Assembly (NCBI GenBank): GCA_963810095.1
Contig: CAWEMM010000009.1
Span: forward strand, 224,001 to 288,000
Length of the DNA: 64,000 nucleotides
Reading direction: 5' to 3'
DNA from: an uncultured Chloroflexia bacterium
GTDB taxonomy: Bacteria > Chloroflexota > Anaerolineae > CG2-30-64-16
Part shown: piece after piece, positions 15,253 to 32,753 of the stretch
Layout of the letters: every line of letters starts with the position of its first letter
Numbering within the stretch: the first letter of the stretch is position 1
Position numbers and translations under genes: made by a program
Notes under the pieces: model-generated
Databases searched by the model: none
What the model saw: the letters and a program-made list of their open reading frames with translations, nothing else
Told to the model about the DNA's origin: nothing

Positions 15253-17493
15253 CTAGTTCGTCATCGTCGCATTGTTCATGATGACCGGCAGGAACATGCG
15301 CGACCCGCGCGTCGGGCTTGCCGTAGGCGTGGCTGTTTCGGTCGCCGTCGCCGTCGGGGTCGCCGTATGGGTCGGGGTGCTGGTCGGCGTATGGGTCGGC
15401 GTCGACGTCTCGGTCGCCGTGGGCGTAGCGGTCGGTGTAGGCGTGTCCTGCGGTTGGAACCGGATCAGCAGCCGCGCCGCCATCGCCGGATTGCTTTCGT
15501 AAGCCGCCCACGTCGCATAGTTTTGGGCGCCGGGAGCCGGGTCGACCAGCAGCGCCAGGTTATTGCCCGACTGCCAGTCCTGCCGGTCCAGAATTTCCTG
15601 CACAACCGACGTGAGGTCGGGAGAGTTCACCCATCCGCCCGCCCGGCTCGTGAGCGTCCAGCTTACCACGGACGAAGTGCGGGGCCGGTTGCTGATCTCG
15701 CGATAGCCGCCATAGAAGTCCTCCGCCTCGCCCCGGTCGTCGCCCGCCAGAACGAGCGGGACGGGCAGCCCACTCTGATACCGGGCATCGAGTTGCAGCG
15801 TGGCGGACATCACCCGGGCGCCGTGCGGGATCTCGATGTTCCGGAAGAGGAAGCCTCCGCTGTAGAGCGCGCCATCGGTGTTGCCGCCCGTCGTCACAGT
15901 GTCGAGCAGCGGGTAGACAACCCCGGTGTCGGTTCGCTCGTGCGCGTCGTCGTAGCAGTTGGCGATCTGCCGCTCGAGCAGCCCGGCCGCAGGTCCCGGC
16001 ACGCTTGACGTCGGATGCGGGGTGGCTGTGCCGAGGCAGGCCGCTCGCGTGGGGCTCGGGGTCGGCGTGACTTCAGGGGCGCCGGCATAGACGAAAACCG
16101 CGCCTGCGTCGATCCGCTCGACGGGATCAAAGCCCGGCGTCCCGATCGCGAGGTCTGCAAAGCCATCGTTGTTGAAGTCGGCCCCGGCGCCACTCTGGCC
16201 GTACAGGTCGCCGGCGGCCATTCCCGCCTGGCTCCATGCCGGCGGCGTAACGAGGCCGGTCGCCGAGCCGTAATAGAGCTCGGCAGCGCCGGCTTCGGAC
16301 CCGGTGGCGGGCGCCCCGATCAGAACGTCGTCGAAGCCGTCGCTGTTCGTGTCGCCTACGACGGCGATCGTCGCGCCGAAACCTGCCAGTGACGCGCCGC
16401 CATCCAGCGGTGTGCCCGTTGCCGGCAGCCCTCCGGATGCGCCCATGAAGTACGTAACCCGGCCCGTCTGACCGGACGGCCCGGTATACTGGGGGGCGCC
16501 GACAAAGACGTCGGCCAGGCCGTCGCCGTTGATGTCGCCTGCTGCGACCGCGGCCCCGCACTGCGCCTGGTCCTGGTCGCACTCGAAGGTCCAACCGGGC
16601 GTCGTCGCAACGCCGCCTGCGCCGCCGGCAAACAGGAATGCCGCGCCCTCGTTCGGCTGGCCGTTCGAGTACATGGGCGCGCCGGCGACCACGTCGGCTG
16701 CGCCGTCACCGTCGGTGTCACCAACTGCCACGCTCTGCCCGAAGCGCGCACCCGCCTGGTTGATCTCCAAGGTCGCCGCGCCGGACGTCGAGGGACCCGT
16801 GCCAGACCCGTAGTACACGAACACCGCGCCCTCGTCGACCTCGCCGTTATCCCAGCCGGGCGCGCCGACAACCAGATCGGAGAAGCCGTCGGCGTTTACG
16901 TCGCCACCTCCCAGGGCCAGGCCGAAGAGGCTGGACGGCTGCCCCGTGACCTCAAATGCAGGTGTCGGACTCAGGCCGGCCGCGGTCCCAAGATACACGT
17001 CAACCCGGCCGGCGTCGATATTGGCGCCGTCATCATAGTAGACGCCCGCGACGGCCACGTCTGCATAGCCGTCGCCGTTCACGTCGCCGATGCCGGCCAC
17101 GCTGAGCCCATACTGCTCGCCGCTCTGGGCGCCCGTGAGGGTCAGGGCGGGCGCGGGGGAGAGGCCCGTGGACGAGCCGTAGTAAATCTGTGCGCTGCCG
17201 GCGTCGGTCAGGGTGGGATCACCGACCAGGTCGGCGAGCGGCGCGCCGGCGATCAGATCGGCATAGCCGTCGCCGTTGATGTCGCCTGCGCTGGCCATGC
17301 TGCGCCCCAGCGCGTCGCCAGCCGAGCCGCCCTCCAGAACAACCGTGGGCGTAGTTACCGGGGCGGAAGGGGCCGCCACCCGTGGGGCCCGTGCCGTGCC
17401 GGCCTGCTGCGCCAGGCTGCTCGATGCCAGGGGCACGAGCAGTGCGAGCAGCAGCAAACCGGTGAAAAGGGGAGAGTACTTCTTCACTGACAT
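15253..17493 (-). CDS. Secreted FG-GAP (integrin-alpha-like beta-propeller) repeat protein with PT linker and C-terminal FLPVI tail
   Basis: Signal peptide, ~7 GDxNGDGxxDxxxGAP repeats, a beta-rich C-terminal domain, TPTPTAT linker, [16 protein letters not shown]. Confidence 0.9.
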
Positions 17494-17708
17494 TGCCTGA
17501 CCTCCTCGAACTCTTCGATACGTCGTACAACGTCCCGCCTGAAGTACGGCATACGCGGCGGACAGTGGGCCGTGTATGCGCGCCATGTTAGCATATGGCA
17601 AGCGTATTTGAGAAAAGCACCGCGACGACGGCGCGCAACCGAATGCACCTGGAAGCGTACTATAGTAAGGAACGTTCAACTATCCCGCAGGTGACACGGA
17701 GGTTTCAC

Positions 17709-18465: not shown

Positions 18466-18825
18466 AGGTCTATCCTCCAAGGGAAAAGACGCCTTCACAT
18501 CATAAACTGATGGCGTCTCAGCGTCGTGCAGGAAGCGACGCGGCCAATCTACTCTACACCACTTCTAACGCAGCAACATCGGCGGGATTACGGGCAGAGC
18601 CCTACAACTTTTGTCCTATTTTCTCTCGAATTCCTGATCAGATTTCATACAACTTCCCCGCTACGCTGGTGTTAACGCTTCTGGTGCGCGCGACGGGTGC
18701 CGGTCCAAGGGGCGATTTGGCCGCTGACGAGGGCCGGTCTATACTGAAGTGTAGCTTTAGTTACACCTCGCTTCGTGTTCGCGCATTGCCGTTCGCACAA
18801 TTCCAGTCCGGAGGTTCCATCGCCC

Positions 18826-20466
18826 ATGCCTGGCCTCGATTCCGAAACTCTGCAAATGGTGCTGGCCACGCTTCAGAAATACGCCGACAAAAAGCTCCCC
18901 GAAAAGCTCCTGCTTGAACTGGATCACAACGATGAGTTCCCGCGCAAGGTTCTGAAAGAGCTCTATGACCCGCGGCATCTGGGTTTGCACCTGGTCTTCA
19001 TCCCGGAGTCGTTCGGCGGGTTGGGCGGCGGCGCATACGATATATACCGCGTCTCAGAAGTCATGGCGGCCGTCGACCTGGGGATTGCGACAGGCGTGCT
19101 TGCTACATTCCTGGGCAGCGACCCGATCACGGTGGGCGGCACCCCGGAACAGCAGGCCCACTGGATGGGCCGTATCGCGGAAGAGGGCCTGCTCGTCGCC
19201 TACGGCGCCACCGAACCCCAGGCCGGCAGCGACCTAGGGGCGCTGAAAACCCGCGCGGAGCCGGTCGCCGTGGACGGTACGGTGACGGGGTACAAGATCA
19301 CCGGACGCAAACAGTGGATCTCGAACGGCGGGGAAGCGGACGTCTACACCGTGCTCGCACTGGCCCCCGGCGGACCGACCTGGTTTATTCTCGAGCGCGG
19401 CGCAGAGGGGTTCACGCAGGGTAAGCCCGAGGACAAGCACGGCATCCGGGCGAGCAACACGGCGGCCCTCTTCCTCGAGGACGTTTTTGTCCCAATCGAC
19501 CGATTGGTCGGTGGGGTCGAAGGGCAGGGCCTCATCCAGGCGCAGGCGGTGTTCGGCTACACCCGGCTGATGGTGGCCGCGTTCGGCTTGGGTGCGGGCT
19601 GGGCCGCGCTGAAGCGCGCGATCCGCTACTCGCAGCAGCGGATCCAGGCCGGCGCCCCTCTCTCTCAGAAGCAGGGCTACACCCACAAGCTGATCGTCCC
19701 CAACGCGTGCCGGCTTGAAGCGGCCCGCTCGTATATCGAGTGGACCGCCGCCCGGATCGACGACGGCGCCGGCAATCTACAGACGGAGGGGGCGGTCGCC
19801 AAGTACGTTGCGACCGAGGGCGGCAACCGGGCGGCCGAAGACAGCATCCAGGCCATGGGCGGCTACGGCTACGCCAAGGAATACATGGTCGAGAAGATCA
19901 AGCGCGACGTCCGCATCACCACGATCTACGAAGGCACGTCCGAGATCATGGAATGGACCATCGCGCGCGACCGGTGGCAGGAACACCTCAAGACGCGGGG
20001 CGGCTACTATCTCGACTGGGCCACGCGGCTGGAAGCTGCACATGCACAGCACGCCGACACGGGTGCGGGAACCGCGGCCCTTGCCGTGCGAGCACTGGCG
20101 GTCGTGCTGGAACGGTGCCGCACGGAGCGACTGACGCGCAACCAACACGTCCTCTTCCGCCTCGGCGAGCTGATCGCCTGGGCGGAGACGGCTGCGGTGT
20201 TCAGCGAGCGCACGGCCGGGTATCCGACCGCAGCGATCAACCTATCGCCCGAGACCGAAAGGACGATGGCCCGCATCTATGCCCGCGAAGCCGCCTTGAA
20301 AGTCGCAGTCGACGGCCTCCGGATCGTCGCCGGCGCGCTGCCGGCGGCCGCAGCACCGGACCTGGCATCGCAGTTGGGCCTGCCGGCCATTTATGCCGGC
20401 CAGGCCGGCCTGCTCGAAGACATGGACGCGGTCGCGCTCAAGCTGAACGAGGCGTTCCCCGGCTGA
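18826..20466 (+). CDS. Acyl-CoA dehydrogenase family protein with C-terminal extension
   Basis: [45 protein letters not shown]. Confidence 0.93.
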
Positions 20467-20619
20467 GCCGGCGTGGCGCCTGGCGCGCGGTTCGACGATG
20501 AAGCATTTCGGGCACATAGCGTCAAGTGTTGCGTTGCGGCCGCGCCGCGGCCCCGGCGTTCCGACCAACCGGCGCCACAAGTTTTGATTCTACCCCTCTA
20601 TCGCTGGAGGAAAGCAGAC

Positions 20620-23600
20620 ATGGGTGACCCTGCAGAGAGGGCGGTCGCCATCGTCGGCCTCGGCGCGATGATGCCCGACGCCGGCGATGCGCGTGCCTTC
20701 TGGACCAACATCACGCAGAAGCGCTACAGCATCACCGAGGTGCCTCCTGAGCGGTGGCGCGTCTCCGACTATTATGACCCCGACCCCGCAGCGCCGGACA
20801 AGACTTATTCGAAAATCGGGGCATGGGTGCGCGGGTTCGAGTTCGATTGGAAGCAGCACCGGATTCCGCCCAAGGTCGCGGCTGCCATGGACGAGGGTCA
20901 GCAGTGGGCAGTTACCATCGCCGCGCAGGCTCTGACCGACTACGGGTATCCTAATCGCCCGCTGGACACCGACCGCACCGGCGTCATCCTTGGCAATGCG
21001 ATCGGCGGCGAGCAGCACTACATAACGACTCTTCGGGTCATGTCGCCCGAACTCGTGCGCCTGCTCGACGACGTCGAGTCCTTCCGTGCACTTCCGGAAG
21101 CCACTCGCCAACGCGTCCTGTCCGAATGGCGCCGGGCCATCGGGCAGGCATTTCCCGAGATCACCGAAGACACCATGCCGGGCGAGCTGCCCAACATCAT
21201 TGCGGGCCGTGTCGCCAACGTGCTTAACCTCCGCGGCCCCAGCTTCATCGCCGACGCAGCCTGCGCCTCGTCCTTCGCGGCGATCGCCTCCGCGGTCGAG
21301 TTGCTGGCCGAAGGCCGCTGCGATGCGGTGATAGCCGGAGGTGTCGATCGCAACATGGGACCGTCGACCTTCGTCAAGTTCTGCAAGATCGGCGCGCTGA
21401 GTGCGACCGGCACCCGGCCCTTTGGCGACGGCGCAGATGGCTTCGTGATGGGCGAGGGTGCGGGTGCGTTCCTCTTGAAACGGTTGTCCGACGCGGAAGC
21501 GGCCGGCGACACGATCTACGCGGTCATCCGCGGCATCGGCGCGTCCTCGGATGGTAAGGGGAAAGGCATTACCGCGCCCAACCCCGTGGGCCAGATGCTG
21601 GCCGCCCGCCGGGCGTGGGAGAATGCAGGCCTCGACCCCGCCACCGCAACGCTTCTCGAAGCACACGGCACGAGCACGCGCGTCGGCGACGTGACCGAGG
21701 TCGAGAGCCTCAGCCAGGTCTTCGGCCACGCTCCGAAGGGCGCGATCGCGCTCGGCTCGGTCAAGAGCAACATCGGGCATCTGAAGGCCGGCGCGGGCGC
21801 GGCTGGGCTTCTCAAGACCGTCTGGGCGATGCATGAGAAGCTGCTGCCGCCCACGCTCAATGCCCGGCCGTCCAATCCGAAGGTGGACTTCTCGCAGACC
21901 CCGTTCGAGCTCAATCACGAGCTCCGTGAATGGCCCGCCGCTGGCGGCCAAACCCGGCGGGCCGGGGTCAGCGCGTATGGCTTCGGCGGTACGAATTTTC
22001 ACCTGGTGCTTGAAGAGCACGTGCCGGGCATGCTGGCGGGCAATGGGCGAAAGGTGCACGCCGTCGCCGCGCCCGAACAGGTGCCGGCGCCGCGGATGGC
22101 CGCAGCGACTGAGCGGGCGCCGGTGCCAGCCGGTGCGCCTACCGGTTCAGAGCAACCCCTGCCCCGCGCTCCCCTCGCCCGCCCCGCGCCCCTCCAGGGC
22201 ATCCTGGCGCTCTCGGCAGATGATCCTCAGGCGCTCAGCGCGAAGGTGGAAGCGACGCTGGCACGGGTTGCGAACGGCTGGTGCCCGCCGCTCCAACTCC
22301 CCGCGGCGGCCGACGTGGCCGGTGCGGAGCGCCTGGTGATCGATTTTGCCGGCCGCCAGGAGCTCGAAGAGCGGCTCGTGAAGGCGCGGAAGGCCATTTC
22401 CCTCGGCACGCCGGCCGCCTGGAAGCCGCTGGCTTCCCAAGGGGTGTACCGGGGCAGCGGGCCGATGCCCGGCAAGATCGCATTCCTCTTCCCCGGGCAG
22501 GGCAGCCAGACGCTGAACATGGCGCGCAAGATCGCCGGCGTCGCACCCAGCGTGGCCGCGATGTTCTCAGAAGCGGACGGCATCATGCAGCCCATCCTCG
22601 GCCGGCCGCTGAGCAAGTTCGTCTGGGTCGACGCGACCGAGCCGGACGACGTCAAGCGGGCCGAGGACGAGCTTCGCCAAACGGCCATCACCCAGCCCGC
22701 GATGCTGACGGTCGACGCCGCGCTGCAGCGGCTGCTTGCGGATTACGGCTTCCGTCCCGACTACCTCATGGGTCACTCATTGGGCGAATACGCCGCGCTG
22801 GTGGCCTCGGGCGTCATGCCCTTCGCGCACGCACTGGAGGCCACTGCCGCCCGCGGCCAGGAGATGACGCGGGTCAGCGTGAACGATCCGGGTTGGATGG
22901 CCGCCGTCATCGGTCCCTATGAAAAAGTTGCTCAGGTGCTCAAGGAAATCGACGGCTACGTCGTCGCCGCCAACCTCAACAGCCACAACCAGACGGTGAT
23001 TGGCGGAGCAACCGAGGCAGTCAAGAAGGCGATCGAGCGATTCAATAAGTCCGGGCTCAAAGCGATGCGCATCCCGGTCAGCCACGCGTTTCACACGCAG
23101 ATCGTCGCCTCCGCTGCCCGACCGCTGCGCCAGGTGCTCGACCGGCTCAGTTTCAGCTCGCCCCAAATCCCGGTCATTGCCAACGTCACGGGCGAGTTGT
23201 ACCCCTCCGACCCGCAGCACGTCAAGGACTACCTGGAACGCCAGATTGCCTCGCCGGTACAGTGGGCCAAGGGGCTGGAAACGCTTTATGGCTTGGGCGT
23301 GCGCGTCTTCATGGAAGTGGGGCCCAAGAAGGTGCTGAAGGGGTTTGTGGACAACGTGCTGGCGGGCCGTCCCGACCTCGTCTCGCTTTTCACCAATCAC
23401 CCGGACTTCGGCGAGATTGCGATGTTCAACCAGGCGATCTGCGGCCTGTACGCGGCCGGCTATACGCCGTCCGAAGCCCCCGGCGTCGCGGTCCCCGTCG
23501 TCGCCCACGCTCCCGTTCCCGACCCGACGCTCTCGGCCCTCGGGAAAAATCCGGACAACGGTGCGGTGCGCCCGCTGTCCACACCCGTTCATACGGCGAC

Positions 23601-26600
23601 CCCGGCCGTCGCCAATTTCGAGGAATCTATGGCAGCCACCCCATCCTCCGAATCGCTTACCGCGCTCGCCCAGGTCCTGGCCCAGGCACTTCAGTCTGTA
23701 CCGGCCAACGCGCAAGCTGCGCCTCGTACGCCCGACCGTAACGACGTCCCGCTCGGCTCGGTCGTCATTTCCGGCGCCGGCCTCGGTTTGCCGGGCACGC
23801 GGCAAGCGCTTTATGGACCCCGACAATGCGCTGCGTATCCTGCGCGGCGAGCAGTTCATCGAGCTGTTGCCCGAGAGCGCGCGTGAAGCGATGGTGGGCA
23901 AGCGCATTACCCGGCTGGTGAAGGCCGAGGATGGCAGCGGCAGCTTCGAGACGATCGAAAACACGGCCGACGTGATCAAGTTGGCCGGGCAGCCGGGGCA
24001 GTTCGACCTGGCCGAGGAATTCGGCGTCCCAGAAAAGCTGGTCGAGGCACTGGACCTTGCGTCGCAGATCGCCATGGCCGCGGGCCTCGACGCTCTCCGT
24101 GAGTCAGGGATCCCGCTCGTGCAGACCTACAAGAAGACGAGCAAGGGCACCTATCTGCCGGATCGCTTCGTGCTGCCCCAGGCGCTGCGCGACGAGACCG
24201 GCGTGATCTTTGCGAGCGCCTTCCCCGGGCTCGATCGCTTTGCCGAGGAGTTGAAGCGCTATCACCGGTGGGAGGGCAAGGTCCAGCAGTTGGCGGCGCT
24301 GGAGGACTTGCGCGAGTACGCGGCGGCCGACGCCGGCGACGATGCGCTGCTGCGCGAGATCGACCGCCGCATCCATGCGCTGCGGGCCGACATGCAGCGC
24401 GACCCGTATACCTTTGACCGGCGCTTCCTCTTCCGCGTCCTGTCCATGGGACACAGCCAGTTCGCCGAGTTCATCGGCGCACGCGGCCCCAACACCCAGG
24501 TCAACGCCGCGTGCGCAAGCACGGCCCAGGCGGTCGCGTTGGCGGAAGACTGGATCAGGTCGGGTCGCTGCCGCCGCGTCCTCGTCATCGGGGGCGACGC
24601 GACCACCAGCGACAACATGCTCGAGTGGCTCGCGGCGGGCTTCCTGTCGGCGGGCGCGGCCGCGACCGATGACAGGGTGCAGGATGCAGCGCTGCCTTTC
24701 GACCGGCGGCGGCACGGCATGCTGACCGGGATCGGCTCCGTGGCGCTGGTCGTGGAGAGCGAGGACGCGGTGCGCGAGCGTGGGATGCGGGGCATCGCCG
24801 AGGTGCTGGCGACGGAGACGGCCAACAGTGCCTTCCACGGCACCCGCCTCGACGTCGAGCACATCACCCTCGTGATGGAGCGCCTCGTCAGCTCGGCCGA
24901 GCGCCGCTTTGGCATCAATCGCTATGCTGTCGCAGGGCAAACGGTCTTCATGTCGCACGAGACCTTCACGCCGGCCCGGGGCGGCAGCGCGGCCGCGGAG
25001 GTAATGGCCCTACGCAACTGCTTCGGCCCCGCGGCAGATGAGATCGTCGTCGCAAACACCAAGGGTTTCACCGGCCATACAATGGGCGCCGGCGTCGAGG
25101 ATGTGGTGGCGATCAAGGCCCTGGAACACGGCGTAGTGCCGCCTGTCCCCAACTTTAAGGAGCCCGATCCCGAGCTGGGCGCGCTGAACCTGAGCCGAGG
25201 GGGCCGCTATGGCGTCCAGTACGCCCTGCGCCTGGCCGCCGGCTTCGGGTCACAGATCAGCATGACCCTGTGCCGTCGCATTCCCGGCGGCCTTGACCGG
25301 GTCGACAACAAGCCGCGCTACGGGCGCTGGCTGGCCGACGTGAGCGGGTACGACCAGCCCGAACTGGAAGTCGTCCGGCGCACGCTGCGCATCAAGGGCG
25401 AGGGCGCGCCGCAACGCATGCCGGTGGGCAGCGCCTGGCAGTACGGCACCGGTCCAAGCGTGCGTGCGGCGGCCCCCGGCGACACCGGCGGCGCGTTCCG
25501 CCCCATGCCGATGGCGGCCGTAAGGCGAGTCATGGCTGCAGGCCAGGGGGCGCATGCGGTCGAGCTTCCGACAGTCCCGCACCCGGCGCCTGCCCAACCG
25601 GCGGCTCCGCCGAAGCAGGAGGAGCCGGCCCCGGCCGTCGAAGCCGTCCGCGTGGTCGCGCCGGATCTTGGCGCAGAGAACCGGGAGAAACCAGGTCTCT
25701 CCGAGAAACCCGGTTTCGTGCCCGCTGGGGCGGCGCCGGCTGATGCGGTGACGCCGCAGGTGTTGGCGATCGTCGCCGCGAAGACGGGTTACCCGCAGGA
25801 CATGCTCGACCTGGAGCTGGACCTGGAGGCGGACCTGGGCATCGACACGGTGAAGCAGGCGGAGACGCTCGCGGCGATTCGCGAGGCCTTCGGCATCCCG
25901 CTGCAGGAGAACCTGTCGCTGCGCGATTACCCGACGCTGCAAAGCGTGGTGGGGTTCGTCTATAAGTTCCGGCCCGACCTGGCCGCAGGCGAGTTGGAAC
26001 GCGAAGACGCTAAGGCGCCGGCAAGCGGGCGCAGCGAAGACGCGACGCACGAAGGCCGGCCGATAGAGGCGGTTTCGACCCCCGTTGGGCGCTCGGCGCC
26101 CGCTGTGGCAAAGGCGGCTGATGCGGTGACGCCGCAGGTGCTGGCAATCGTGGCCGACAAGACTGGGTATCCGCAGGACATGCTCGACCTGGAGCTGGAC
26201 CTGGAGGCGGACCTGGGCATCGACACGGTGAAGCAGGCGGAGACGCTCGCGGCGATCCGCGAGGCCTTCGGCATCCCGTTGCAGGAGAACCTGTCGCTGC
26301 GCGATTACCCGACGCTGCAGAGCGTGGTCGGCTTCGTGTACAAGTTCCGGCCGGACCTGGCGGCAGGAGAGCTGGAACGCGGAGACGCGAAGGCGCCGGC
26401 AAGCGGGCGCCGCGAAGATGCGAAGCACGAAGGTCGCGAAGGCCGGTCGATGGAAGTAGTCTCGGCCCCCGTTGAGCCCGCTGCGCCCGCTGTGGCAAAG
26501 CCGGCTGATGTGGTGACGCCGCAGGTGCTGGCGATTGTAGCGGACAAGACCGGCTACCCGCAGGACATGCTCGACCTGGAGCTGGACCTCGAGGCGGACC

Positions 26601-29376
26601 TGGGCATCGACACGGTGAAGCAGGCGGAGATGTTCGCGGTCGATTCGCGAGGCCTTTGGCATTCCGCTACAGGAGAACCTGTCGCTGCGCGATTACCCGA
26701 CGCTGCAAAGCGTGGTCGGCTTTGTGTACAAGTTCCGGCCGGACCTTGCTGCAAAAACCGCAGCGGGCGATGGGACCAGAGCTGAGCAGCCCTCGGTACC
26801 TCTCGTCCCCTCAGTCGCCCCTGATTCCTCTGTGGCAGAGACCGCGGGGCGGCGATATTCGATCGAGGACGCAAACCGGATTCCGCGTCGCGTGCCTGTT
26901 GCCAGCCTGCGGCCCGCGCTGAGCCTCTGCAAGCCAACCGGCGTGGAACTCCGCGCAGGTTCGCGGGTGGTCGTAATGGCCGACGAGGGTGGCGTGGGCA
27001 AAGCGCTGGAAGCGCGCTTGCGTAAGCTGGGCGTCACTGTCCTCGGGCTCGAACCCGGCATTCCGACGGCCGATCTCGAAGGCCGGCTCAAGGCGTGGCT
27101 GGCCGAGGGGCCGGTGCAGGGGGTCTACTGGCTGCCCGCACTCGACGTCGAACCTGGCCTCGATAAGCTTGATTTGGCGGGATGGCGGGAGGTGAACCGC
27201 CGCCGCGTGAAGAACCTGTATGCCGCCATGCGAGCGCTGTACGACTCGGTCGCCGGCTCGGGCGCATTCCTGGTCTCAGCGACCCGGCTCGGCGGCCTGC
27301 ACGGCTATGGGCCGGGCGGCGCGAGTGCACCTGCCGGCGGCGGCGTTTCGGGCTTCACGAAAGCCTACGCCATGGAGCAGGGGCTGCGCGAGGGCAAGCG
27401 GCTGACCGTGAAGGTCGTCGACTTCGAGCAGGGCGCCAAGCCCACCGACGCGGCCTCGATGCTGGTCGAAGAGACCTTATACGACCCCGGCGTGATCGAG
27501 GTCGGGCGGCACGGTAGCATGCGCTATTCGGTCACGCTGCAGGAGCGCCCCGCACAACACGGCGGCCCCGGCTTGCAACTGGGACCCGGCACCGTGTTTC
27601 TCGTTACCGGCGCGGCGGGCGGCATCACCAGCGAGATCGTGGCCGACCTCGCGGCTGCCAGCCAGGGCGTCTTCTACCTGCTGGACCTGGCAGCACTGCC
27701 CCCGCGGGACGACGGGCACGTGGCGGCTTTCCGCAAGGGGCGCGATGCGCTGAAGGCGGTGCTGATCGAAGAGGCGCGCAGCCGCAGCAACAAGCCCACC
27801 CCGGCAGCTATCGACAAGCAGATTGCCGCAACCGAGCGGTCCGAGGCGGCGCTGCGCGCAGTGGAAGCGGTCGAAGCGGCAGGCGGCACGGCGCACTATC
27901 ACAGCGTCGACCTTCGGGAGGCCGAGGCGTGTGCGGCCGTCATCTCCGACGTCCGGCAGCGCTACGGCCGGCTCGACGTGTTCGTCCATGCGGCCGGCTT
28001 GCTCGTGGACCGCACGCTGCCCAACAAGGAGCCCGCCCAGTTCGATCTCGTCTTCGATGTCAAGGCGGACGGTTGGTTCAATCTGATGTCGGCTGCCGCC
28101 GATCTGCCCATCTGCGCGGCGGTCGCATTCAGCTCCGTGGCGGGGCGGTTCGGCAACAACGGCCAGACGGACTACTCGGCCGCAAACGATCTCTTGTGCA
28201 AGCTGAGCAGCGGCCTGGCCCGCAGCCGGCCCGGGGCCCGGGGCATCGCCATCGACTGGACCGCGTGGGGTGGAATCGGCATGGCTTCCCGGGGTTCCGT
28301 GCCGCAGATCATGGAGGCGCTCGGCGTCGACATGCTCCCGCCTGAGTGCGGCGTGCCGACCGTGCGTCGGGAGCTGATCAGCGGGAACGCTGCGGGTGAG
28401 GTGGTGGTTGCGGGGCGGTTGGGCGCGTGGCTGGAAGAGCGCGACCCCAGCGGGGGGCTCGACGCCGAAAAGGCGGGCGCGTTCCTGGCAAGCCGCCAAC
28501 CGCGCCTGCCAATGGTGGAAAAGATCGTCGCGTGCAAGCTGTACGGCGGCGTGGAGATCGAGACGACGTTGGACCCGAGGGAGCAGCCCTTCCTTTTCGA
28601 CCATGCGCCCGACCCCGAGACGCCCTGGCTGCCCGGCGTGATGGCGACGGAAGCGTTGGCCGAGGCTGCAGTCGTGCTCGCGCCCGGGTATCACGTGGCC
28701 GCAGTCGAAAACGTGCAGATGCTCGGTGCGTTCAAGTTCTTCCGGATGGAGCCGCGCACGCTGTACCTCAGCGCGGTGGTCACGGCGGGCGGCGGTGGAG
28801 AGCTAGTGGCTCGGGCGACGCTGCGCTCGATCACCCGGCCGGCGAAAGACAACGTGCCGCCGCAGGTCAAGGAGCACTTCGTCGCCGACGTGCGGCTGCA
28901 GCGCAACGCACCCTCGGTCGACAAGGTGACGTTTGAGCCGCCCGCGAAATCCCTGCTCGACACGGGACGAGAGGAAATCTACAAGCTTTTCTTCCACGGC
29001 CCCGCTTACCAGGTGCTGGAATCCGCCGGGGTGCGGAAGGTAGAGGCGGTCGGCGTACTCCCCCGGCAGCTGCCGCCCGATCTCAGTCACAAAGAGCCGA
29101 ACGGCCATGCGATCCTGATGGCGCCCGCGGCTGATCGAGTCCATGTTCCAGGCGGCCGCGTTCTGGAACGTGCGGCAGAAGGGCGCAATGGCCTTCCCGC
29201 TCGGCGTCGGCTCGGTCACGACCTATCGCGACCCCGCCACGGCCAACGGCAAGCGGCTGTATGCCGTCGTAAGCACCTCAGACCAGGGGCAAACCTTCGA
29301 CGGCCGGGTGGTCGACGAAGAAGGCGAGGTGTACGTGGAACTGCGTGGCTACCGGACCGTGGCCCGGCCGGCCTAA
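20620..29376 (+). CDS. Iterative type I PKS/FAS, KS-AT-KS-ACP-ACP-ACP-KR-DH (frameshifts ~23800, 26640, ~29128)
   Basis: KS1: DAACASS/EAHGT/NIGHL. AT: GHSLG/HAFH. KS2: NAACAS/SHET/FTGHT. Three ACPs with [10 protein letters not shown]: [18 protein letters not shown]: [19 protein letters not shown]. Spans four ORFs joined by single-base shifts. Confidence 0.9.
25740..26750 (+). repeat. Three near-identical ~240-bp ACP-coding direct repeats
   Basis: [42 protein letters not shown]...YKFRPDLAA at ~25740, ~26118 and ~26505. Confidence 0.95.
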
Positions 29377-29386
29377 GCAACCAAAC

Positions 29387-29589
29387 TGAAATGGGACACT
29401 GATACAACTGAGTGAACTGATCCACACTGACCTTTTGAACCTGTCGCCAGGCGAAAATGCTCTGGCCGGTCTCCGACCGAGCCAGGGGGCACGGTCAGAG
29501 ACCGGCCCCAGCCAACATTTTCACGCTGCGACTCGTTTGGTAAAGATCGTGATAATCAGTCGAATCCGTCCAATCAGTGTCCCATTTCA
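29387..29589. mobile_element. MITE-like element with perfect 17-bp terminal inverted repeats and a nested REP-like hairpin
   Basis: TGAAATGGGACACTGAT...ATCAGTGTCCCATTTCA. Internal GGCCGGTCTCCGACCGAGCC/GGCACGGTCAGAGACCGGCC at 29464-29507. Extra half-copy at 29630-29664. Confidence 0.65.
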
Positions 29590-29667
29590 CCCCTCGTTGT
29601 CCAGCAGCGCAGGGCGAAGGTCTAAAACCGAAATGGCACGCTGATACAACTGATTGAACCGATCTGC

Positions 29668-29676
29668 TGGTACAAT
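29668..29676 (+). promoter_or_regulatory. Extended -10 promoter (TGgTACAAT), probably leaderless
   Basis: Ends 6 nt before the ATG at 29683, with no SD. Confidence 0.6.
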
Positions 29677-29682
29677 CCTCGT

Positions 29683-30396
29683 ATGTATCCTTCACCCGAC
29701 CCGCGCATCTTCTGCCTGCTCCAGTCCACCTCCGCGCATCCCGGGCTCGCCGCCGCCGAGCCCCCGCCCGGTCTGCTTTCGGCGGCCGAGCAGGCCCGCT
29801 GCGAGAAGTTCGCGGTGCCAAAGCGCCGTCGTGACTGGCTGCTGGGACGCTGGACCGCCAAACACCTCGTCCGGGCATACCTTGCCGAAGCTCGAGATAG
29901 GCTAGTTCCGCTGGACGAGATCGAGGTTCTCGCCGGCGACGACGGCGCGCCCTACGTCCAGGTGGGCGAGCCGCTCCCGCTCAGTCTCTCCATCAGCCAC
30001 AGCGGAGTCGAGAGCTTCTGTGCGGTGTGCCGGGCAAAGGACGGGCACGTTGGTGCGGATATCGAGCAGGTCGAGCCGCGCGAAACCGGCTTGGTGCATA
30101 CCTTCTTCACCCCTGCCGAGATCGCAGTGGTCGACGCGGCCGTGGCCTCCGAGCGCGACGCGTACATTACCGCGATCTGGAGTGCGAAGGAAGCGGTGCT
30201 GAAGACGCTGCGCCTCGGCCTGCGCGCCGACACCCGGCAGGTCGAGGTCGCCATCTCACGGCTCAGCCCAGAGTGGCGTGCATTCTCCGTGGTCGTCGAC
30301 TCAAGGCTCCTTCCCTCGCCCGTGTCGGCTGTCGCCGGCTGGTCTCGCATCGATCCCCGCCGCGTCCTCTCACTCGCCATGCTCGCCCTCGGCTAA
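29683..30396 (+). CDS. Sfp-type 4'-phosphopantetheinyl transferase
   Basis: RRRDWLLGRWTAK, GAP, SISHS, GADIEQVE, WSAKEAVLK. Confidence 0.93.
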   Translation: MYPSPDPRIFCLLQSTSAHPGLAAAEPPPGLLSAAEQARCEKFAVPKRRRDWLLGRWTAKHLVRAYLAEARDRLVPLDEIEVLAGDDGAPYVQVGEPLPLSLSISHSGVESFCAVCRAKDGHVGADIEQVEPRETGLVHTFFTPAEIAVVDAAVASERDAYITAIWSAKEAVLKTLRLGLRADTRQVEVAISRLSPEWRAFSVVVDSRLLPSPVSAVAGWSRIDPRRVLSLAMLALG

Positions 30397-30522: not shown

Positions 30523-30577
30523 TACAAACCCCTTGACAACATTATACAAACATGATATATATGTCCAAGGTTTGTAT
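30523..30577 (+). promoter_or_regulatory. Sigma70-type promoter with overlapping operator-like repeats
   Basis: TTGACA at 30533, 17-bp spacer, TATATA. TACAAAC occurs twice and inverted GTTTGTA once. Confidence 0.55.
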
Positions 30578-30617
30578 CGACAAGCAATCGTCGCAGCGCA
30601 AGTGGAGGAGCAAAGGC

Positions 30618-31772
30618 ATGGGTTTCTACCTCGCCCTGAAAGAAATCTGGCGCACCCGGGGGCGCTTCATCCTGTTCAGCATGGTCATCGCACTGATCAC
30701 GATGCTGGTTCTGTTCGTCGCCGCCCTCGCCGAGGGCTTGGGCTCGGGCAACCGGGAATACATCCAGAAGCTCAACGCGGACCTGATCGTCTACCAGTCG
30801 AAGACGGACCTGAGCGCCGGTGCAAGCCGGATCGGGACCTCCAAGCTCAACGAGATCCGCCGGGTGGACGGCGTTTCGGCCGTGGGGCCCATTGGCGTCG
30901 CCAGCGTGACCCTGACCCGAAACGGCGAGAAGGTGCTCAATGTGGCGCTGGTCGGCGTCGAGCCTGGCATGCCGGGCGAGCCGCCCGCGCTGCAGGGGCA
31001 GGGCCTGGGCAGCCGCCGGGCGCGTGAGGCGGTTTTGGACCGCAACGTGGCACTGCGGGCCAAGGTCGGCGTGGGCGACGTGATCACGATCAAGTCGATC
31101 CAGGGGACAAACGAGGAATATTACGACCTGAAGGTGGTCGGCATCAGCGACGGCCGCCAGTACAGCCTGCAGCCTTCGGTCATCGTACCCTTCCGCACCT
31201 GGGACGAACTCCGGCCCCAGCCCGCGAAGGGCGGCTCGGGCAACGCCGAACTGGTCGCCAACATCGTTGGCGTGCAGCTGGCGAACCCGCAGGACTGGGA
31301 GGCCATGGCGCAACGCATCCAGAACGAGGTGTCCGACGTGCAGGTGGTCGACCGGGTGACGGCGTACCAGGCGACGCCGGGCTACAGCGCCCAGCAGAGC
31401 ACGCTCGACACGCAGCGCTACTTTGCCCTGTTGATCGGCATCCTGGTCATCGGCGGCTTCTTCCAGATCCTGACGCTGCAGAAGGTAGCGCAGATCGGCA
31501 TGCTGAAGGCCATCGGCGCCTCCAACCGGGTGGTCGGCACTGCGGCGATCATCCAGATCATTGCGGTCACGGTCATGGGTGTGGCCCTGGGCGCGGCCTT
31601 CTCGCTGGCCCTGTCGCTCGGCTTTCCGCCCACTGTGCCGATCATCTTCTCGCCCGCGGCGGTCTCTGCAGCTGTGCTCTCGCTGCTCCTGATCGGCCCC
31701 ATCGGCGGCCTGGTCTCGGTTCGCTACTCGCTGAAGGTCGAGCCGCTCACGGCTCTGGGCCTCGCGCAATGA
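30618..31772 (+). CDS. ABC transporter permease (FtsX/MacB-type)
   Basis: N-terminal TM, large extracytoplasmic domain, QIGMLKAIGAS, three C-terminal TMs. Confidence 0.92.
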   Translation: MGFYLALKEIWRTRGRFILFSMVIALITMLVLFVAALAEGLGSGNREYIQKLNADLIVYQSKTDLSAGASRIGTSKLNEIRRVDGVSAVGPIGVASVTLTRNGEKVLNVALVGVEPGMPGEPPALQGQGLGSRRAREAVLDRNVALRAKVGVGDVITIKSIQGTNEEYYDLKVVGISDGRQYSLQPSVIVPFRTWDELRPQPAKGGSGNAELVANIVGVQLANPQDWEAMAQRIQNEVSDVQVVDRVTAYQATPGYSAQQSTLDTQRYFALLIGILVIGGFFQILTLQKVAQIGMLKAIGASNRVVGTAAIIQIIAVTVMGVALGAAFSLALSLGFPPTVPIIFSPAAVSAAVLSLLLIGPIGGLVSVRYSLKVEPLTALGLAQ

Positions 31773-31778
31773 CATCGG

Positions 31779-31869
31779 AATTGGATGCAGATTGAACGGG
31801 TGGAGCGGATTCCGAAGGTTTATCTGAGACAACTCAACGCCGGTCAATGAGTCCGATCGGCGTCCCAGT
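31779..31869. repeat. Degenerate copy of the GGGACACTGAT inverted-repeat element
   Basis: ttggatgcagattgaacgg...tccgatcggcgtcccag between permease and ATPase genes. Confidence 0.45.
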
Positions 31870-31889
31870 GGGGAATTGTGGAGTAAAGA

Positions 31890-32681
31890 ATGTTTGCACT
31901 CGAGACGCGTGATGTGTTGAAGGCTTATGGGTCTGGGACCTCGGTGACCAGGGCCGTGGACGGAGTGTCGATTGGCGTGCGCAGCGGTGAGTTCGTGGCA
32001 CTCGTCGGGCCCAGCGGTTCGGGGAAGACCACCTTGTTGGCCATGCTCGCCGGCCTGCTGCGCCCCACGAGCGGCGACCTCCTGATCGACGGGAACGAAC
32101 TGGGCCGCATGAAGGACGGGGAGCGCACCGCCTTCCGCCGCCAGCGGATCGGGTTCACGTTCCAGGCTAACAACCTGGTGCCCTTCCTGACGGCGCTGGA
32201 GAATGTCGAGCTGATGCTGCGGCTGAACGGCCGGCTGGACAAGGCGGGCAAGGCGCGGGCCCGCGACCTGCTGGAACGCTTGGGGCTGGGCGACCGCCTG
32301 AACAGCCTCCCCCGGCAGTTGTCCGGCGGACAGCAGCAGCGGGTGGCCATTGCCCGTGCGCTTATCCACGAGCCCGCGGTCGTCCTGGCCGACGAGCCGA
32401 CGGCCAGCCTCGATACGGAGCGCGCGTTCCAGGTCGTCGAGACCTTCGCCACCATGATCCGTGAGCAGAACCGGGCGGGCATCATGGTTACGCACGATCT
32501 GCGCATGATCCAGTACGTGGACCGGGTGCTGCAGATGCGGGATGGCAAGCTGGCTCGGGAGATTACGGATCGCGACGAGATCATGCTGATGGCGGGCACC
32601 GGGCTGCACGACGCACCGGTCGCCGCCAACTGGCCGACGCCCACACCCGTGCTGGCAGTCGAACCCGTGGTCGTGCAGTAA
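31890..32681 (+). CDS. ABC transporter ATP-binding protein (LolD-like)
   Basis: GPSGSGKTT, LSGGQQQRVAIARAL, LADEPT, VTHD. Confidence 0.96.
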   Translation: MFALETRDVLKAYGSGTSVTRAVDGVSIGVRSGEFVALVGPSGSGKTTLLAMLAGLLRPTSGDLLIDGNELGRMKDGERTAFRRQRIGFTFQANNLVPFLTALENVELMLRLNGRLDKAGKARARDLLERLGLGDRLNSLPRQLSGGQQQRVAIARALIHEPAVVLADEPTASLDTERAFQVVETFATMIREQNRAGIMVTHDLRMIQYVDRVLQMRDGKLAREITDRDEIMLMAGTGLHDAPVAANWPTPTPVLAVEPVVVQ

Positions 32682-32753
32682 CCACAGACCACCGAATCGT
32701 TGTTGAGTTTCTCGCGGTCGTTGGCCGCTGCGTTGGAAGAGGGAGATCATCTC

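What the first reader, a model, noticed from the sequence alone, without database searches (positions are those of the whole stretch)
18826..30396. Unusual lipid/polyketide cluster: two catalytically complete KS domains in one module, no ER or TE, with an acyl-CoA dehydrogenase in front
Seen: the domain order is KS1-AT-KS2-ACPx3-KR-DH. KS1 has C(21262)/H/H. The divergent KS2 also keeps Cys (NAACAS, 24512), His (SHET) and His (TGHT), plus a long helical insertion. The AT carries the malonyl-type HAFH. No enoyl reductase or release domain is present. Established: in PUFA synthases the second KS-like domain (CLF) lacks the catalytic Cys, and PfaA is KS-AT-ACPn-KR-DH. Inference: KS2 could perform a second chemistry such as head-to-head condensation, starter loading or chain release. 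The co-oriented ACAD could act in trans as desaturase or enoyl reductase, giving a specialised membrane lipid or small polyketide.
Basis: partly seen in the sequence, partly recalled or inferred. Interest (0 to 1): 0.72.

Follow-up and report, generated by a model that had tools for sequence, protein, structure and literature searches.

The report
Two-ketosynthase "Type R" lipid synthase operon
This is a three-gene operon for a giant fatty-acid-like synthase of a family catalogued in 2011 whose product is still unknown; it carries two working chain-building domains, an unusual carrier-domain residue, and a neighbouring flavoenzyme that probably does the missing reduction step.

Summary
One gene (20620-29376, +) encodes KS1-AT-KS2-ACPx3-KR-DH, with an acyl-CoA dehydrogenase (ACAD, 18826-20466) in front and a PPTase (29683-30396) behind. 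It reads in four frames. One break (23801) is an extra base that short-read contigs of three runs lack, and rpoB, fabF and fabH are also split, so the breaks are most likely assembly errors.

It is not a new kind. It is the "Type R secondary lipid synthase" of Shulse & Allen 2011, product unknown, and this scan met it six times before.

What I add:
- KS2 keeps Cys/His/Lys/His in all 81 loci and in 112-113 of 113 full-length relatives, so it is an active FabF-like KS, not a chain-length factor.
- The VLCAD-like ACAD is adjacent in 49 of 57 testable loci and co-occurs in 7 of 7 related genomes. Deeper relatives (Asgard archaea, Desulfobacterota) carry a PfaD/FabK-type enoyl reductase fused in that same N-terminal slot. 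The ACAD is therefore probably the trans enoyl reductase.
- All carrier domains have Thr where the phosphopantetheine Ser should be. This tracks the presence of KS2 across the family.

Interest is moderate.

The parts
18826..20466 (+). VLCAD-type acyl-CoA dehydrogenase (546 aa): three ACAD domains plus a conserved ~150-aa C-terminal helical domain. Proposed trans-acting enoyl reductase.
   Evidence: Pfam ACAD N/M/C domains. Best PDB sequence match is MCAD 1udy, E 8.7e-60, with the catalytic Glu motif IYEGT aligned. Model pLDDT 88.6; the best full-length fold matches are 2z1q, human VLCAD 7s7g/3b96 and 3owa. Orthologues at 59-78% identity extend through the C-terminal domain.
20620..29376 (+). 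Type R secondary-lipid megasynthase gene, about 2917 codons, read in four frames because of three frame breaks.
   Evidence: Colinear tblastn with the intact L008 protein. ATG at 20620 behind GGAGG, stop at 29374-29376.
20638..22020 (+). KS1, PfaA-like ketosynthase (Cys codon 21262; His at 21658 and 21769 motifs).
   Evidence: Pfam ketoacyl-synt and Ketoacyl-synt_C; TIGR02813 PfaA 624 bits for the KS1-AT piece; motifs.
22483..23341 (+). Acyltransferase domain with GHSLG (22771) and HAFH (23083).
   Evidence: Pfam Acyl_transf_1 residues 671-956; motifs. That HAFH marks malonyl specificity is recalled knowledge.
23801..23801 (+). Frame break 1: one extra base in the window (frame 1 to frame 2), at the N-terminus of KS2.
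   Evidence: Contigs of runs X1, X2 and X4 (one contig each, depth 4-6.3, 0-1 other differences) leave out one letter at 23801. The closest relative L001 reads through in frame here.
23752..25300 (+). KS2, a diverged FabF-like ketosynthase with a helical-hairpin insertion (Cys codon 24512, SHET 24953, NTKGFTGH ~25055-25078).
   Evidence: Pfam and NCBIfam FabF-type hits only; PDB FabF 1j3n E 1.1e-25; model and Foldseek; residue conservation.
25748..26753 (+). Three tandem ACP domains (starting at 25748, 26126, 26513). Each has GIDTVK, with Thr at the phosphopantetheine-Ser position.
   Evidence: Pfam PP-binding; tandem repeat of period 378, 2.7 copies; Thr aligned to the Ser of PigH, CurA and ACP chains; motif counts.
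26635..26649 (+). Frame break 2 (frame 2 to frame 3), inside the third ACP.
   Evidence: tblastn segments end at 26635 and restart at 26649; three-frame translation. Not tested with reads.
27594..28272 (+). Ketoreductase domain (TGAAGGIT 27606; Ser 28128 motif; Tyr in DYSAAN 28170).
   Evidence: Pfam KR, adh_short; motifs.
28480..29373 (+). PKS-type dehydratase domain (His motif FLFDHAPD at 28590), with its C-terminal part in another frame.
   Evidence: PS-DH/PKS_DH_N in intact relatives at the same position; colinearity; motif.
29125..29126 (+). Frame break 3 (frame 3 to frame 1), in the DH C-terminal part.
   Evidence: tblastn segments 26649-29126 and 29125-29370; three-frame translation. 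Not tested with reads.
29683..30396 (+). Sfp-type 4'-phosphopantetheinyl transferase (237 aa).
   Evidence: Pfam ACPS and 4PPT_N. Present downstream in 40 of 45 testable loci and fused to the synthase in 78 of 113 full-length relatives.

Best explanation
The window holds a working operon for a 'Type R' secondary-lipid synthase: a VLCAD-like flavoenzyme, a megasynthase of about 2917 aa, and a PPTase. The operon is broken only on paper, by assembly indels.

The synthase is an iterative, fatty-acid-synthase-like machine. Its steps are as follows.
- The AT loads malonyl units onto three tandem carrier domains.
- Both KS1 (PfaA-like) and KS2 (FabF-like, with a helical hairpin insertion) perform ordinary decarboxylative condensations. 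They probably act on different chain lengths, as the two KS domains of PUFA synthases do.
- KR and the PKS-type DH take each beta-keto group to a trans-2-enoyl thioester.
- The ACAD encoded just upstream supplies the missing enoyl reduction in trans, presumably with electrons from ETF.

The product is therefore a saturated or mostly saturated long-chain acyl group for an accessory lipid. How the chain is released is not known.

The carrier domains bear Thr instead of Ser at the prosthetic-group site. I infer that the dedicated PPTase loads this Thr.

What is shown: domain content, catalytic residues, conservation, synteny, co-occurrence, and the identity of frame break 1. What is inferred: the division of labour between the KS domains, the reductive direction and substrate of the ACAD, modification of Thr, and the nature of the product.
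For: **One gene, complete domain set.**

**Breaks are artefacts.**
- The extra base at 23801 is absent from contigs of 3 runs.
- rpoB, two fabF copies and fabH are also split across frames.
- No premature stop lies within the aligned frames, and identity to an intact relative is 61-65% throughout.

**KS2 is active.**
- Cys/His/Lys/His are invariant.
- FabF fold, TM 0.86 on the target.
- Two KS domains used by chain length are established in PUFA synthases (abstract).

**The ACAD belongs to the system.**
- It is adjacent and co-oriented in 49/57 loci.
- An orthologue (at least 61% identity) is present in 7/7 KS2-positive genomes and 1/24 KS2-negative genomes among 31 relatives. The one exception is a fragment at a contig end.
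- It is fused to the synthase in one MAG protein, P0056.

**The ACAD sits in the ER slot.**
- 87 of 113 full-length relatives carry an N-terminal NMO (PfaD/FabK-type) domain directly before KS1.
- L065 lacks the ACAD and has a separate PfaD-like gene beside its PPTase.
- On a KS2 tree the ACAD-linked loci are one side of a branch (SH-aLRT 93). Their sister group contains L065, and deeper branches are NMO-fused.
- No PfaD-like ER was found in the own genome.
- ETF alpha is present twice in the own genome.

**Lipid context and accessory status.**
- ACC subunits lie in 26 of 42 testable loci.
- An intact fabF elsewhere in the genome and patchy distribution (7/31 relatives, 11/301 in the phylum sample) argue for an accessory rather than a primary synthase.
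Against: - No experiment exists for any member of the family, so the product is unknown (Shulse & Allen 2011).
- ACADs normally oxidise. The reductive direction needs a low-potential donor, and no etf gene lies in the cluster.
- Five archaeal-labelled loci (L068, L069, L072, L076, L077) and L063 have neither an ACAD nor an NMO ER beside the synthase. In four of those genomes the best ACAD is only 35-39% identical and lacks the C-terminal domain, and no PfaD-like gene was found. A dedicated ER partner is therefore not universal.
- The second paralogue in this genome (C7) has no ACAD or PPTase beside it.
- The KS2 tree is a quick search rooted on a very long FabF branch.
- Frame breaks 2 and 3 were not tested with reads.
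- The sets of relatives were gathered by similarity to my own queries and are related to each other, so the counts are not independent events.
Confidence: 0.55

Rival explanations
1. The ACAD is not the enoyl reductase. It acts oxidatively as an acyl-ACP/CoA dehydrogenase (a desaturase or tailoring enzyme, as TcsD does in a PKS pathway). Enoyl reduction is either done by the housekeeping FAS II reductase or not done at all, which would give an unsaturated or polyene chain.
For: - ACADs are normally dehydrogenases. The catalytic Glu motif of the oxidative enzymes is kept.
- An ACAD that forms a double bond in a PKS pathway is in print (TcsD preprint 10.1101/736256, abstract seen in the listing).
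- The archaeal-labelled loci manage without any neighbouring ER candidate.
- KS-AT-ACP-KR-DH(-PPTase) without an ER is the layout of polyene-forming enediyne PKSE (recalled).
Against: - The synthase already has a DH that makes the 2-enoyl bond, so a 2,3-dehydrogenase would be redundant.
- The slot the ACAD occupies is filled by a bona fide ER-type domain in 87 of 113 full-length relatives and by a PfaD-like gene in L065.
- ACC neighbours point to bulk lipid rather than pigment.
Confidence: 0.25
2. KS2 is not an independent elongating KS. It pairs with KS1 as a CLF-like partner within the polypeptide, or it only primes the synthase by decarboxylating malonyl-ACP.
For: - Shulse & Allen labelled the domain CLF.
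- PfaC and HglC carry KS-CLF pairs (passages).
- The AT looks malonyl-specific (HAFH), so a decarboxylative primer is needed from somewhere.
Against: - The active-site Cys, which a pure decarboxylase or CLF does not need, is invariant in 81/81 loci and 113/113 proteins, together with Lys and both His.
- KS2 is separated from KS1 by the whole AT domain.
Confidence: 0.2
3. The gene is a decaying pseudogene: the three frame breaks are real and the cluster makes nothing in this organism.
For: - There are three frame changes in 8.8 kb.
- The C7 paralogue is split into at least six frames.
- The cluster is patchy among close relatives.
Against: - Break 1 is absent from short-read contigs of three runs.
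- Essential genes are broken in the same way (rpoB; fabF and fabH).
- An earlier follow-up on this genome also met a one-base insertion judged to be an assembly error.
- All catalytic motifs are intact.
Confidence: 0.07

Closest known systems
Type R secondary lipid synthase gene cluster (Shulse & Allen 2011, PLoS One 6:e20146, PMC3098273; Koribacter, Solibacter, Elusimicrobium, Roseiflexus)
   Same: A single pfaA homologue with KS-MAT-second KS-like domain-ACP(3-6)-KR, followed by a PPTase gene. An ACC gene is linked in some members. The phyla match (Chloroflexi, Acidobacteria). Roseiflexus-labelled proteins are 70-73% identical in KS2.
   Different: - The paper calls the second domain a CLF, but here it keeps the full catalytic set.
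- The text I searched does not contain 'acyl-CoA dehydrogenase' (0 occurrences).
- The C-terminal DH is not in its domain formula.
- The product is unknown there too.
Bacterial PUFA synthase PfaABCD (PfaA = KS-MAT-ACPn-KR(-DH); PfaC = KS-CLF-DH2; PfaD = ER)
   Same: KS1-AT, the tandem ACPs and KR-DH all match the PfaA model TIGR02813 (624, 141 and 150 bits). Both are iterative systems with two active KS domains.
   Different: - All scores are below the PfaA cut-off of 1010 bits.
- There are no FabA-type DH/isomerase domains, no PfaB and no PfaD.
- The second KS is in the same polypeptide, behind the AT.
- The carrier domains have Thr, not Ser.
E. coli / P. aeruginosa FabF (KAS II)
   Same: KS2 has the same fold (Foldseek E 3.5e-30, TM 0.86 on 4b7v) and the same Cys-His-Lys-His set.
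   Different: Only about 22% identity. KS2 has a ~55-residue helical hairpin and further insertions before the active-site Cys, and it is embedded in a megasynthase.
Very-long-chain acyl-CoA dehydrogenase type ACADs (human VLCAD 3b96/7s7g, Thermus 2z1q, Bacillus 3owa)
   Same: An ACAD core plus an extra C-terminal helical domain. Full-length structural alignment of 556-595 columns, TM 0.74-0.80.
   Different: Only 23-25% identity. It is encoded as the first gene of a synthase operon, and the proposed direction of catalysis is reductive.
ETF-dependent ACAD-type enoyl-CoA reductases of anaerobes (Bcd-EtfAB 5ol2, CarC 6fah)
   Same: These are ACAD-fold enzymes that work physiologically as enoyl-thioester reductases. 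Both appear among the sequence matches.
   Different: They are short, tetramer-type ACADs encoded with etfAB. Here no etf gene is adjacent, and ETF genes lie elsewhere in the genome.

Membership tests
Type R secondary lipid synthase (Shulse & Allen 2011) | One pfaA homologue with order KS-MAT-(second KS-like 'CLF')-ACP(3-6)-KR | tested here: met
   Pfam and motif order KS1-AT-KS2-ACPx3-KR(-DH) within one colinear gene.
Type R secondary lipid synthase (Shulse & Allen 2011) | PPTase gene directly downstream | tested here: met
   29683-30396, Pfam ACPS. Present in 40 of 45 testable related loci.
Type R secondary lipid synthase (Shulse & Allen 2011) | KS sequence groups with the named Type R organisms | tested here: inconclusive
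   Proteins labelled Roseiflexus/Roseiflexaceae and Terriglobia are among the close KS2 relatives (63-73% identity). I did not place the five published genomes in a tree.
Canonical PUFA synthase (PfaA, TIGR02813, with PfaB/C/D) | Score over the TIGR02813 cut-off (1010.1 bits) | tested here: not met
   624, 141 and 150 bits for the three pieces. The gene was scored in pieces because of the frame breaks.
Canonical PUFA synthase (PfaA, TIGR02813, with PfaB/C/D) | Partner genes: PfaC with FabA-type DH domains and PfaD enoyl reductase | tested here: not met
   None is in the window. A PfaD-like query found nothing in the own genome, and Pfam NMO gave only weak partial hits of at most 32 bits. The genome is 88.5% complete.
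   Cys is present in the window (24512) and invariant in 81/81 loci and 113/113 full-length relatives.
Elongating beta-ketoacyl synthase (KAS I/II, Cys-His-His type) | Thiolase fold with Cys, two His and the Lys before the second His | tested here: met
   Alignment to FabF 1j3n, Foldseek, conservation. Activity itself is not testable here.
VLCAD-type acyl-CoA dehydrogenase | ACAD N, middle and C domains, a catalytic Glu in the YEGT motif, and an additional C-terminal helical domain | tested here: met
   Pfam; alignment to MCAD with IYEGT; full-length fold matches to VLCAD-type chains.
Acyl carrier protein (PF00550) | Ser at the start of helix II as the phosphopantetheine site | tested here: not met
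   All three domains have Thr at the aligned position. The fold family matches (PP-binding, 74 bits). Whether the Thr is modified is not testable with these tools.

The most novel reading that the evidence does not exclude
This whole synthase family, the window's gene included, attaches its phosphopantetheine arm to a threonine rather than the otherwise universal serine, using its own dedicated or fused PPTase. This change arose together with the second ketosynthase. In the bacterial branch, a VLCAD-like acyl-CoA dehydrogenase has replaced the PfaD-type domain as a new class of trans-acting enoyl reductase for a type I synthase. The same enzyme family, in its all-in-one ER-KS-AT-KS-ACP-KR-DH-PPTase form, would give Asgard archaea a complete route to fatty acyl chains.
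Probability: 0.35. Interest if true: 0.8.

Novelty: new member of a known kind. Interest (0 to 1): 0.48.

Why it matters
Type R synthases are among the commonest uncharacterised lipid/polyketide genes in soil and sediment bacteria. The KS2-specific half alone has 801 representatives at 50% identity, and nobody knows what these enzymes make.

Three points from this work make the problem more tractable.
- **Minimal unit to express.** It is ACAD + synthase + PPTase, not the synthase alone.
- **The carrier domains.** With Thr at the attachment site they may not be activated by standard PPTases such as Sfp or AcpS. That could explain failed heterologous expression, and it can be checked by mass spectrometry.
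- **Reach of the family.** Asgard and halophile-labelled archaea carry a complete fatty-acid-type domain set beside acetyl-CoA carboxylase genes. This bears on the archaeal/bacterial lipid divide.

An ACAD acting as the enoyl reductase of a megasynthase would also add a new reductase type.

Tried and rejected
**Primary fatty acid synthase (rejected).** I considered this because of the ACC neighbours in relatives. The own genome has an intact fabF over its cut-off plus fabH. The cluster is also patchy: 7/31 relatives and 11/301 genomes of the phylum sample.

**OleA-like head-to-head condensation by KS2 (rejected).** The catalytic set and fold are FabF-type.

**Three separate genes (rejected).** The gene is colinear with single ORFs of 2805-3122 aa in six relatives.

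**Other conserved neighbours.** I looked for a thioesterase or acyltransferase. Only ACAD, PPTase, ACC carboxyltransferase, biotin carboxylase and a probable BCCP recur. The MacB/ABC/HlyD genes downstream in the window recur in only 3-5 loci.

**PfaC KS/CLF reference sequences for a tree.** I tried to obtain these from a genome with PfaD-like genes (G005). No clear KS-CLF gene was seen in the stretches fetched, so no KS1/KS2/PfaC/CLF phylogeny was made.

**Organisms behind the ER-fused proteins.** The listing of cluster members could not be run, so source names came from the search for homologous proteins instead.

**Literature.**
- Searches for KS-AT-KS / KS-MAT-CLF wording and for Type R with its organisms returned only the 2011 paper.
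- Asgard + fatty acid + ketosynthase returned nothing.
- Six phrasings of threonine phosphopantetheinylation returned nothing.
- ACAD + enoyl-ACP reductase wording returned nothing.
- These searches cover the held open-access library only.

**Reads.** No contig-based statement is possible for frame breaks 2 and 3. The runs are kept as contigs at low depth and may include the window's own source sample.

**Not used.** Complex prediction, because KS-KS or enzyme-carrier pairs would pass or fail by likeness to solved structures.

Full report
**What is in the sequence**

Between 18.8 and 30.4 kb the + strand carries three co-oriented genes.
- An acyl-CoA dehydrogenase (ACAD): ORF 18775-20466, with the likely start codon at 18826.
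- A very large synthase gene.
- A 237-aa Sfp-type PPTase at 29683-30396.

ORF listing splits the synthase into 20473-23886, 23345-26785 and 26712-29402, each in a different frame. Three-frame translation shows that each piece continues in the next frame. A fourth frame carries the last ~80 residues. tblastn with an intact 2973-aa relative (locus L008) runs colinearly through 20620-23820, 23804-26635, 26649-29126 and 29125-29370 at 61-65% identity. It is therefore one gene, from the ATG at 20620 (behind GGAGG) to the stop at 29374-29376.

The domain order is KS1-AT-KS2-ACPx3-KR-DH (Pfam; NCBIfam). No ER or thioesterase family is detected in any piece.

**Are the frame breaks real?**

Probably not, for three reasons.
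- Contigs of three public runs from one study, each near-identical to the window (0-1 other differences over 200-226 bases), leave out one base at 23801. This is exactly break 1. The closest relative reads through in frame there.
- In the same genome rpoB, two fabF copies and fabH are also split between frames.
- An earlier follow-up on another window of this genome met a one-base insertion that it judged to be an assembly error.

Breaks 2 (26635-26649, inside the third ACP of a 378-nt tandem array) and 3 (~29125) could not be tested with the contigs available.

**Is it new?**

No. Shulse & Allen 2011 (PMC3098273; passages read) describe a 'Type R' secondary lipid synthase. It is one pfaA homologue with KS-MAT-CLF-ACP(3-6)-KR, followed by a PPTase gene. 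It occurs in Koribacter, Solibacter, Elusimicrobium and Roseiflexus, sometimes with an ACC gene, and its product is unknown.

- The window's KS2 has 178 confirmed relatives in one-genome-per-species contigs, mostly from Chloroflexota, Acidobacteriota and Myxococcota.
- Roseiflexus-labelled proteins are 70-73% identical.
- The KS2-specific N-terminal half alone finds 801 cluster representatives at 50% identity (629 at E<=1e-10).
- Public names are all generic.
- Searches of the held library for this architecture or for Type R returned only the 2011 paper.
- This scan reached the same family six times before on other genomes. I had arrived at Type R independently.

**KS2**

- Cys, the first His, the Lys and the second His are invariant in 81/81, 81/81, 81/81 and 80/80 sequences (80 loci plus the window; one is truncated).
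- In full-length proteins of at least 2600 aa from the wider family the counts are 113/113, 113/113, 112/113 and 112/113.
- KS2 matches only FabF-type models and structures.
- A model of the closest intact relative (84% identical to the window's KS2; mean pLDDT 89) superposes on FabF (TM 0.86 on the target). It carries an extra helical hairpin at residues 159-211, before the active-site Cys.

So 'CLF' is a misnomer. The Cys-His-His-Lys set is that of decarboxylating, elongating synthases, which argues against head-to-head or release chemistry. Two active KS domains that share the elongation cycles according to chain length are established for PUFA synthases (abstract of PMC11962503). I take that as the most likely role here (inference).

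**The ACAD**

Fold and catalytic motif:
- It has the three ACAD domains.
- The catalytic Glu motif aligns with that of MCAD.
- It has a conserved ~150-residue C-terminal helical domain.
- Its model (pLDDT 88.6) matches VLCAD-type enzymes over the full length.

Linkage to the synthase:
- It lies directly upstream and co-oriented in 49 of 57 loci with enough upstream DNA. The exceptions are L027 (ACAD 2 kb further away), L063, L065 and five archaeal-labelled loci.
- Among 31 close relatives, KS2 is found in 7. All 7 have the ACAD orthologue (61-89% identity), each about 5 kb upstream of KS2. Of the 24 genomes without KS2, only one fragmentary genome has it, at a contig end.
- One MAG protein has the ACAD fused to KS1-AT-KS2 (P0056).

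**Why I read the ACAD as the missing enoyl reductase**

- Deeper members of the same family contain an N-terminal NMO (PfaD/FabK-type ER) domain directly before KS1. These members have KS2 with its full catalytic set. The NMO domain is seen in 5 of 13 long proteins scanned with Pfam and in 87 of 113 full-length proteins by phmmer.
- By source names, these proteins come from Asgard archaea (Heimdall-, Loki-/Promethe-, Hodarchaeota) and Desulfobacterota.
- Locus L065 lacks the ACAD. It has a separate 548-aa NMO + FabD-helical (PfaD-like) gene next to its PPTase. None of the other 79 loci nor the own genome has that gene.
- On a KS2 tree (85 rows, quick search, rooted on the genome's FabF) the ACAD-linked loci form one side of a branch (SH-aLRT 93). 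Their sister group contains L065, and the deeper branches are NMO-fused.

The simplest reading is a single displacement of a PfaD-type ER by an ACAD gene in the same position. ETF, the usual redox partner, is encoded elsewhere in the genome.

Points against this reading:
- ACADs usually oxidise.
- No etf gene is in the cluster.
- The archaeal-labelled loci show no ER candidate at all, either nearby or by these queries in their genomes.
- The tree root is on a long branch.

**Carrier domains**

All three ACPs read ...LGIDTVK..., with Thr at the position that aligns with the phosphopantetheine Ser of PigH, CurA and type II ACPs. This is a family trait.
- The 81 sequences give 211 Thr against 2 Ser motifs, and 70 of 72 with any motif are all-Thr.
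- 110 of 113 full-length KS2-containing proteins are Thr-only. Two are mixed and one is all-Ser.
- Of 22 related NMO-KS-AT-ACP-KR-DH proteins that lack KS2, 19 have the usual LGIDSIK and none has Thr.

So Thr carriers and KS2 go together. A PPTase gene is adjacent in 40/45 loci and fused in 78/113 proteins. Ser and Thr also mix within a few proteins. From this I infer that the Thr is modified. Six phrasings of threonine phosphopantetheinylation found no paper in the held library, and earlier notes of this scan do not mention it. I cannot exclude that it is in print elsewhere.

**Context**

- ACC carboxyltransferase and biotin carboxylase genes follow the PPTase in many relatives: 26 of 42 testable loci have one in the locus. 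They do not in this window, where a MacB/ABC/HlyD exporter follows. That exporter recurs in only 3-5 loci.
- The genome has an intact fabF and a fabH elsewhere. The cluster is patchy within the genus, family and phylum samples. It is therefore an accessory lipid system, not the primary FAS.
- A second, more fragmented paralogue lies on contig C7 without its own ACAD or PPTase. Relatives often carry two copies as well.

**Verdict**

The cluster is a further member of a catalogued but uncharacterised family.

The parts worth carrying forward are:
- the ACAD-for-ER displacement;
- the Thr carrier domains that track KS2;
- the complete ER-containing form of the family in Asgard archaea.

All functional statements remain inferences until an intact operon is expressed.

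Noticed in passing
window 25748-26753 (three ACP domains); also 70 of 72 related sequences with a recognisable motif: Thr replaces the phosphopantetheine-site Ser in every carrier domain (GIDTVK). Across the family this co-varies with the presence of KS2: 110/113 KS2 proteins are Thr-only, while 19/22 KS2-less relatives have Ser and none has Thr.
   Followed up: yes
own genome contig C7:176043-184486 (locus L117:8043-16486): A second paralogue of the same KS-AT-KS2-ACP-KR-DH synthase (59-75% identical), split into at least six frames. It has no ACAD or PPTase beside it: a NUDIX gene lies upstream and a GAF histidine kinase downstream on the other strand.
   Followed up: partly
proteins P0224, P0247, P0199, P0266, P0223 and 82 more: All-in-one ER(NMO)-KS-AT-KS2-ACP-KR-DH-PPTase proteins of 3300-3800 aa. 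Their source names are Heimdall-, Loki-/Promethe- and Hodarchaeota (Asgard archaea), and also Desulfomonile, Desulfospira and other Desulfobacterota. This is a complete fatty-acid-type domain set in archaea.
   Followed up: partly
loci L068, L069, L072, L076, L077: In MAGs labelled Thermoplasmatota or Halobacteriales the synthase (with fused PPTase) is flanked by ACC carboxyltransferase upstream and by BioY, biotin carboxylase, BCCP and an enoyl-CoA hydratase downstream. No ACAD orthologue or PfaD-like ER was found in four of these genomes with my queries.
   Followed up: partly
L065:15977-17620 (-): A separate PfaD-like enoyl reductase gene (NMO + FabD helical insert) lies next to the PPTase in the one Anaerolineae-type locus that lacks the ACAD.
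   Followed up: yes
own genome: C14:146935-150808 (rpoB), C6:1667134-1669399 (fabH, fabF), C7:295229-296445 (fabF): Housekeeping genes are split between reading frames, which indicates frequent single-base indel errors in this assembly. Any apparent pseudogene in this genome should be checked against reads.
   Followed up: partly
window 30552-34052 (+): A MacB-type permease, an ABC ATPase and a HlyD-type membrane-fusion protein lie directly behind the PPTase on the same strand. They recur in only 3-5 of 80 related loci, so they are probably not part of the system.
   Followed up: partly
window 20551, 24345 and 29484: Single contigs of the laid runs differ from the window by small indels outside the three frame breaks: one base left out at 20551, two left out at 24345 in one low-depth contig while two other runs agree with the window, and a G put in behind 29484. 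These may be strain variants or further assembly errors.
   Followed up: no
window 37835-39913 (-) and 15253-17679 (-): A LigD-type ATP-dependent DNA ligase with a primase-polymerase domain, and an 808-aa FG-GAP repeat protein. Both are ordinary neighbours unrelated to the cluster.
   Followed up: no
protein P0056 (2185 aa, one Anaerolineales MAG contig): The ACAD is fused in frame to KS1-AT-KS2, in the same N-terminal position that the NMO ER domain occupies in other members. This is a single record, so a lost stop codon or a sequencing error cannot be excluded.
   Followed up: partly
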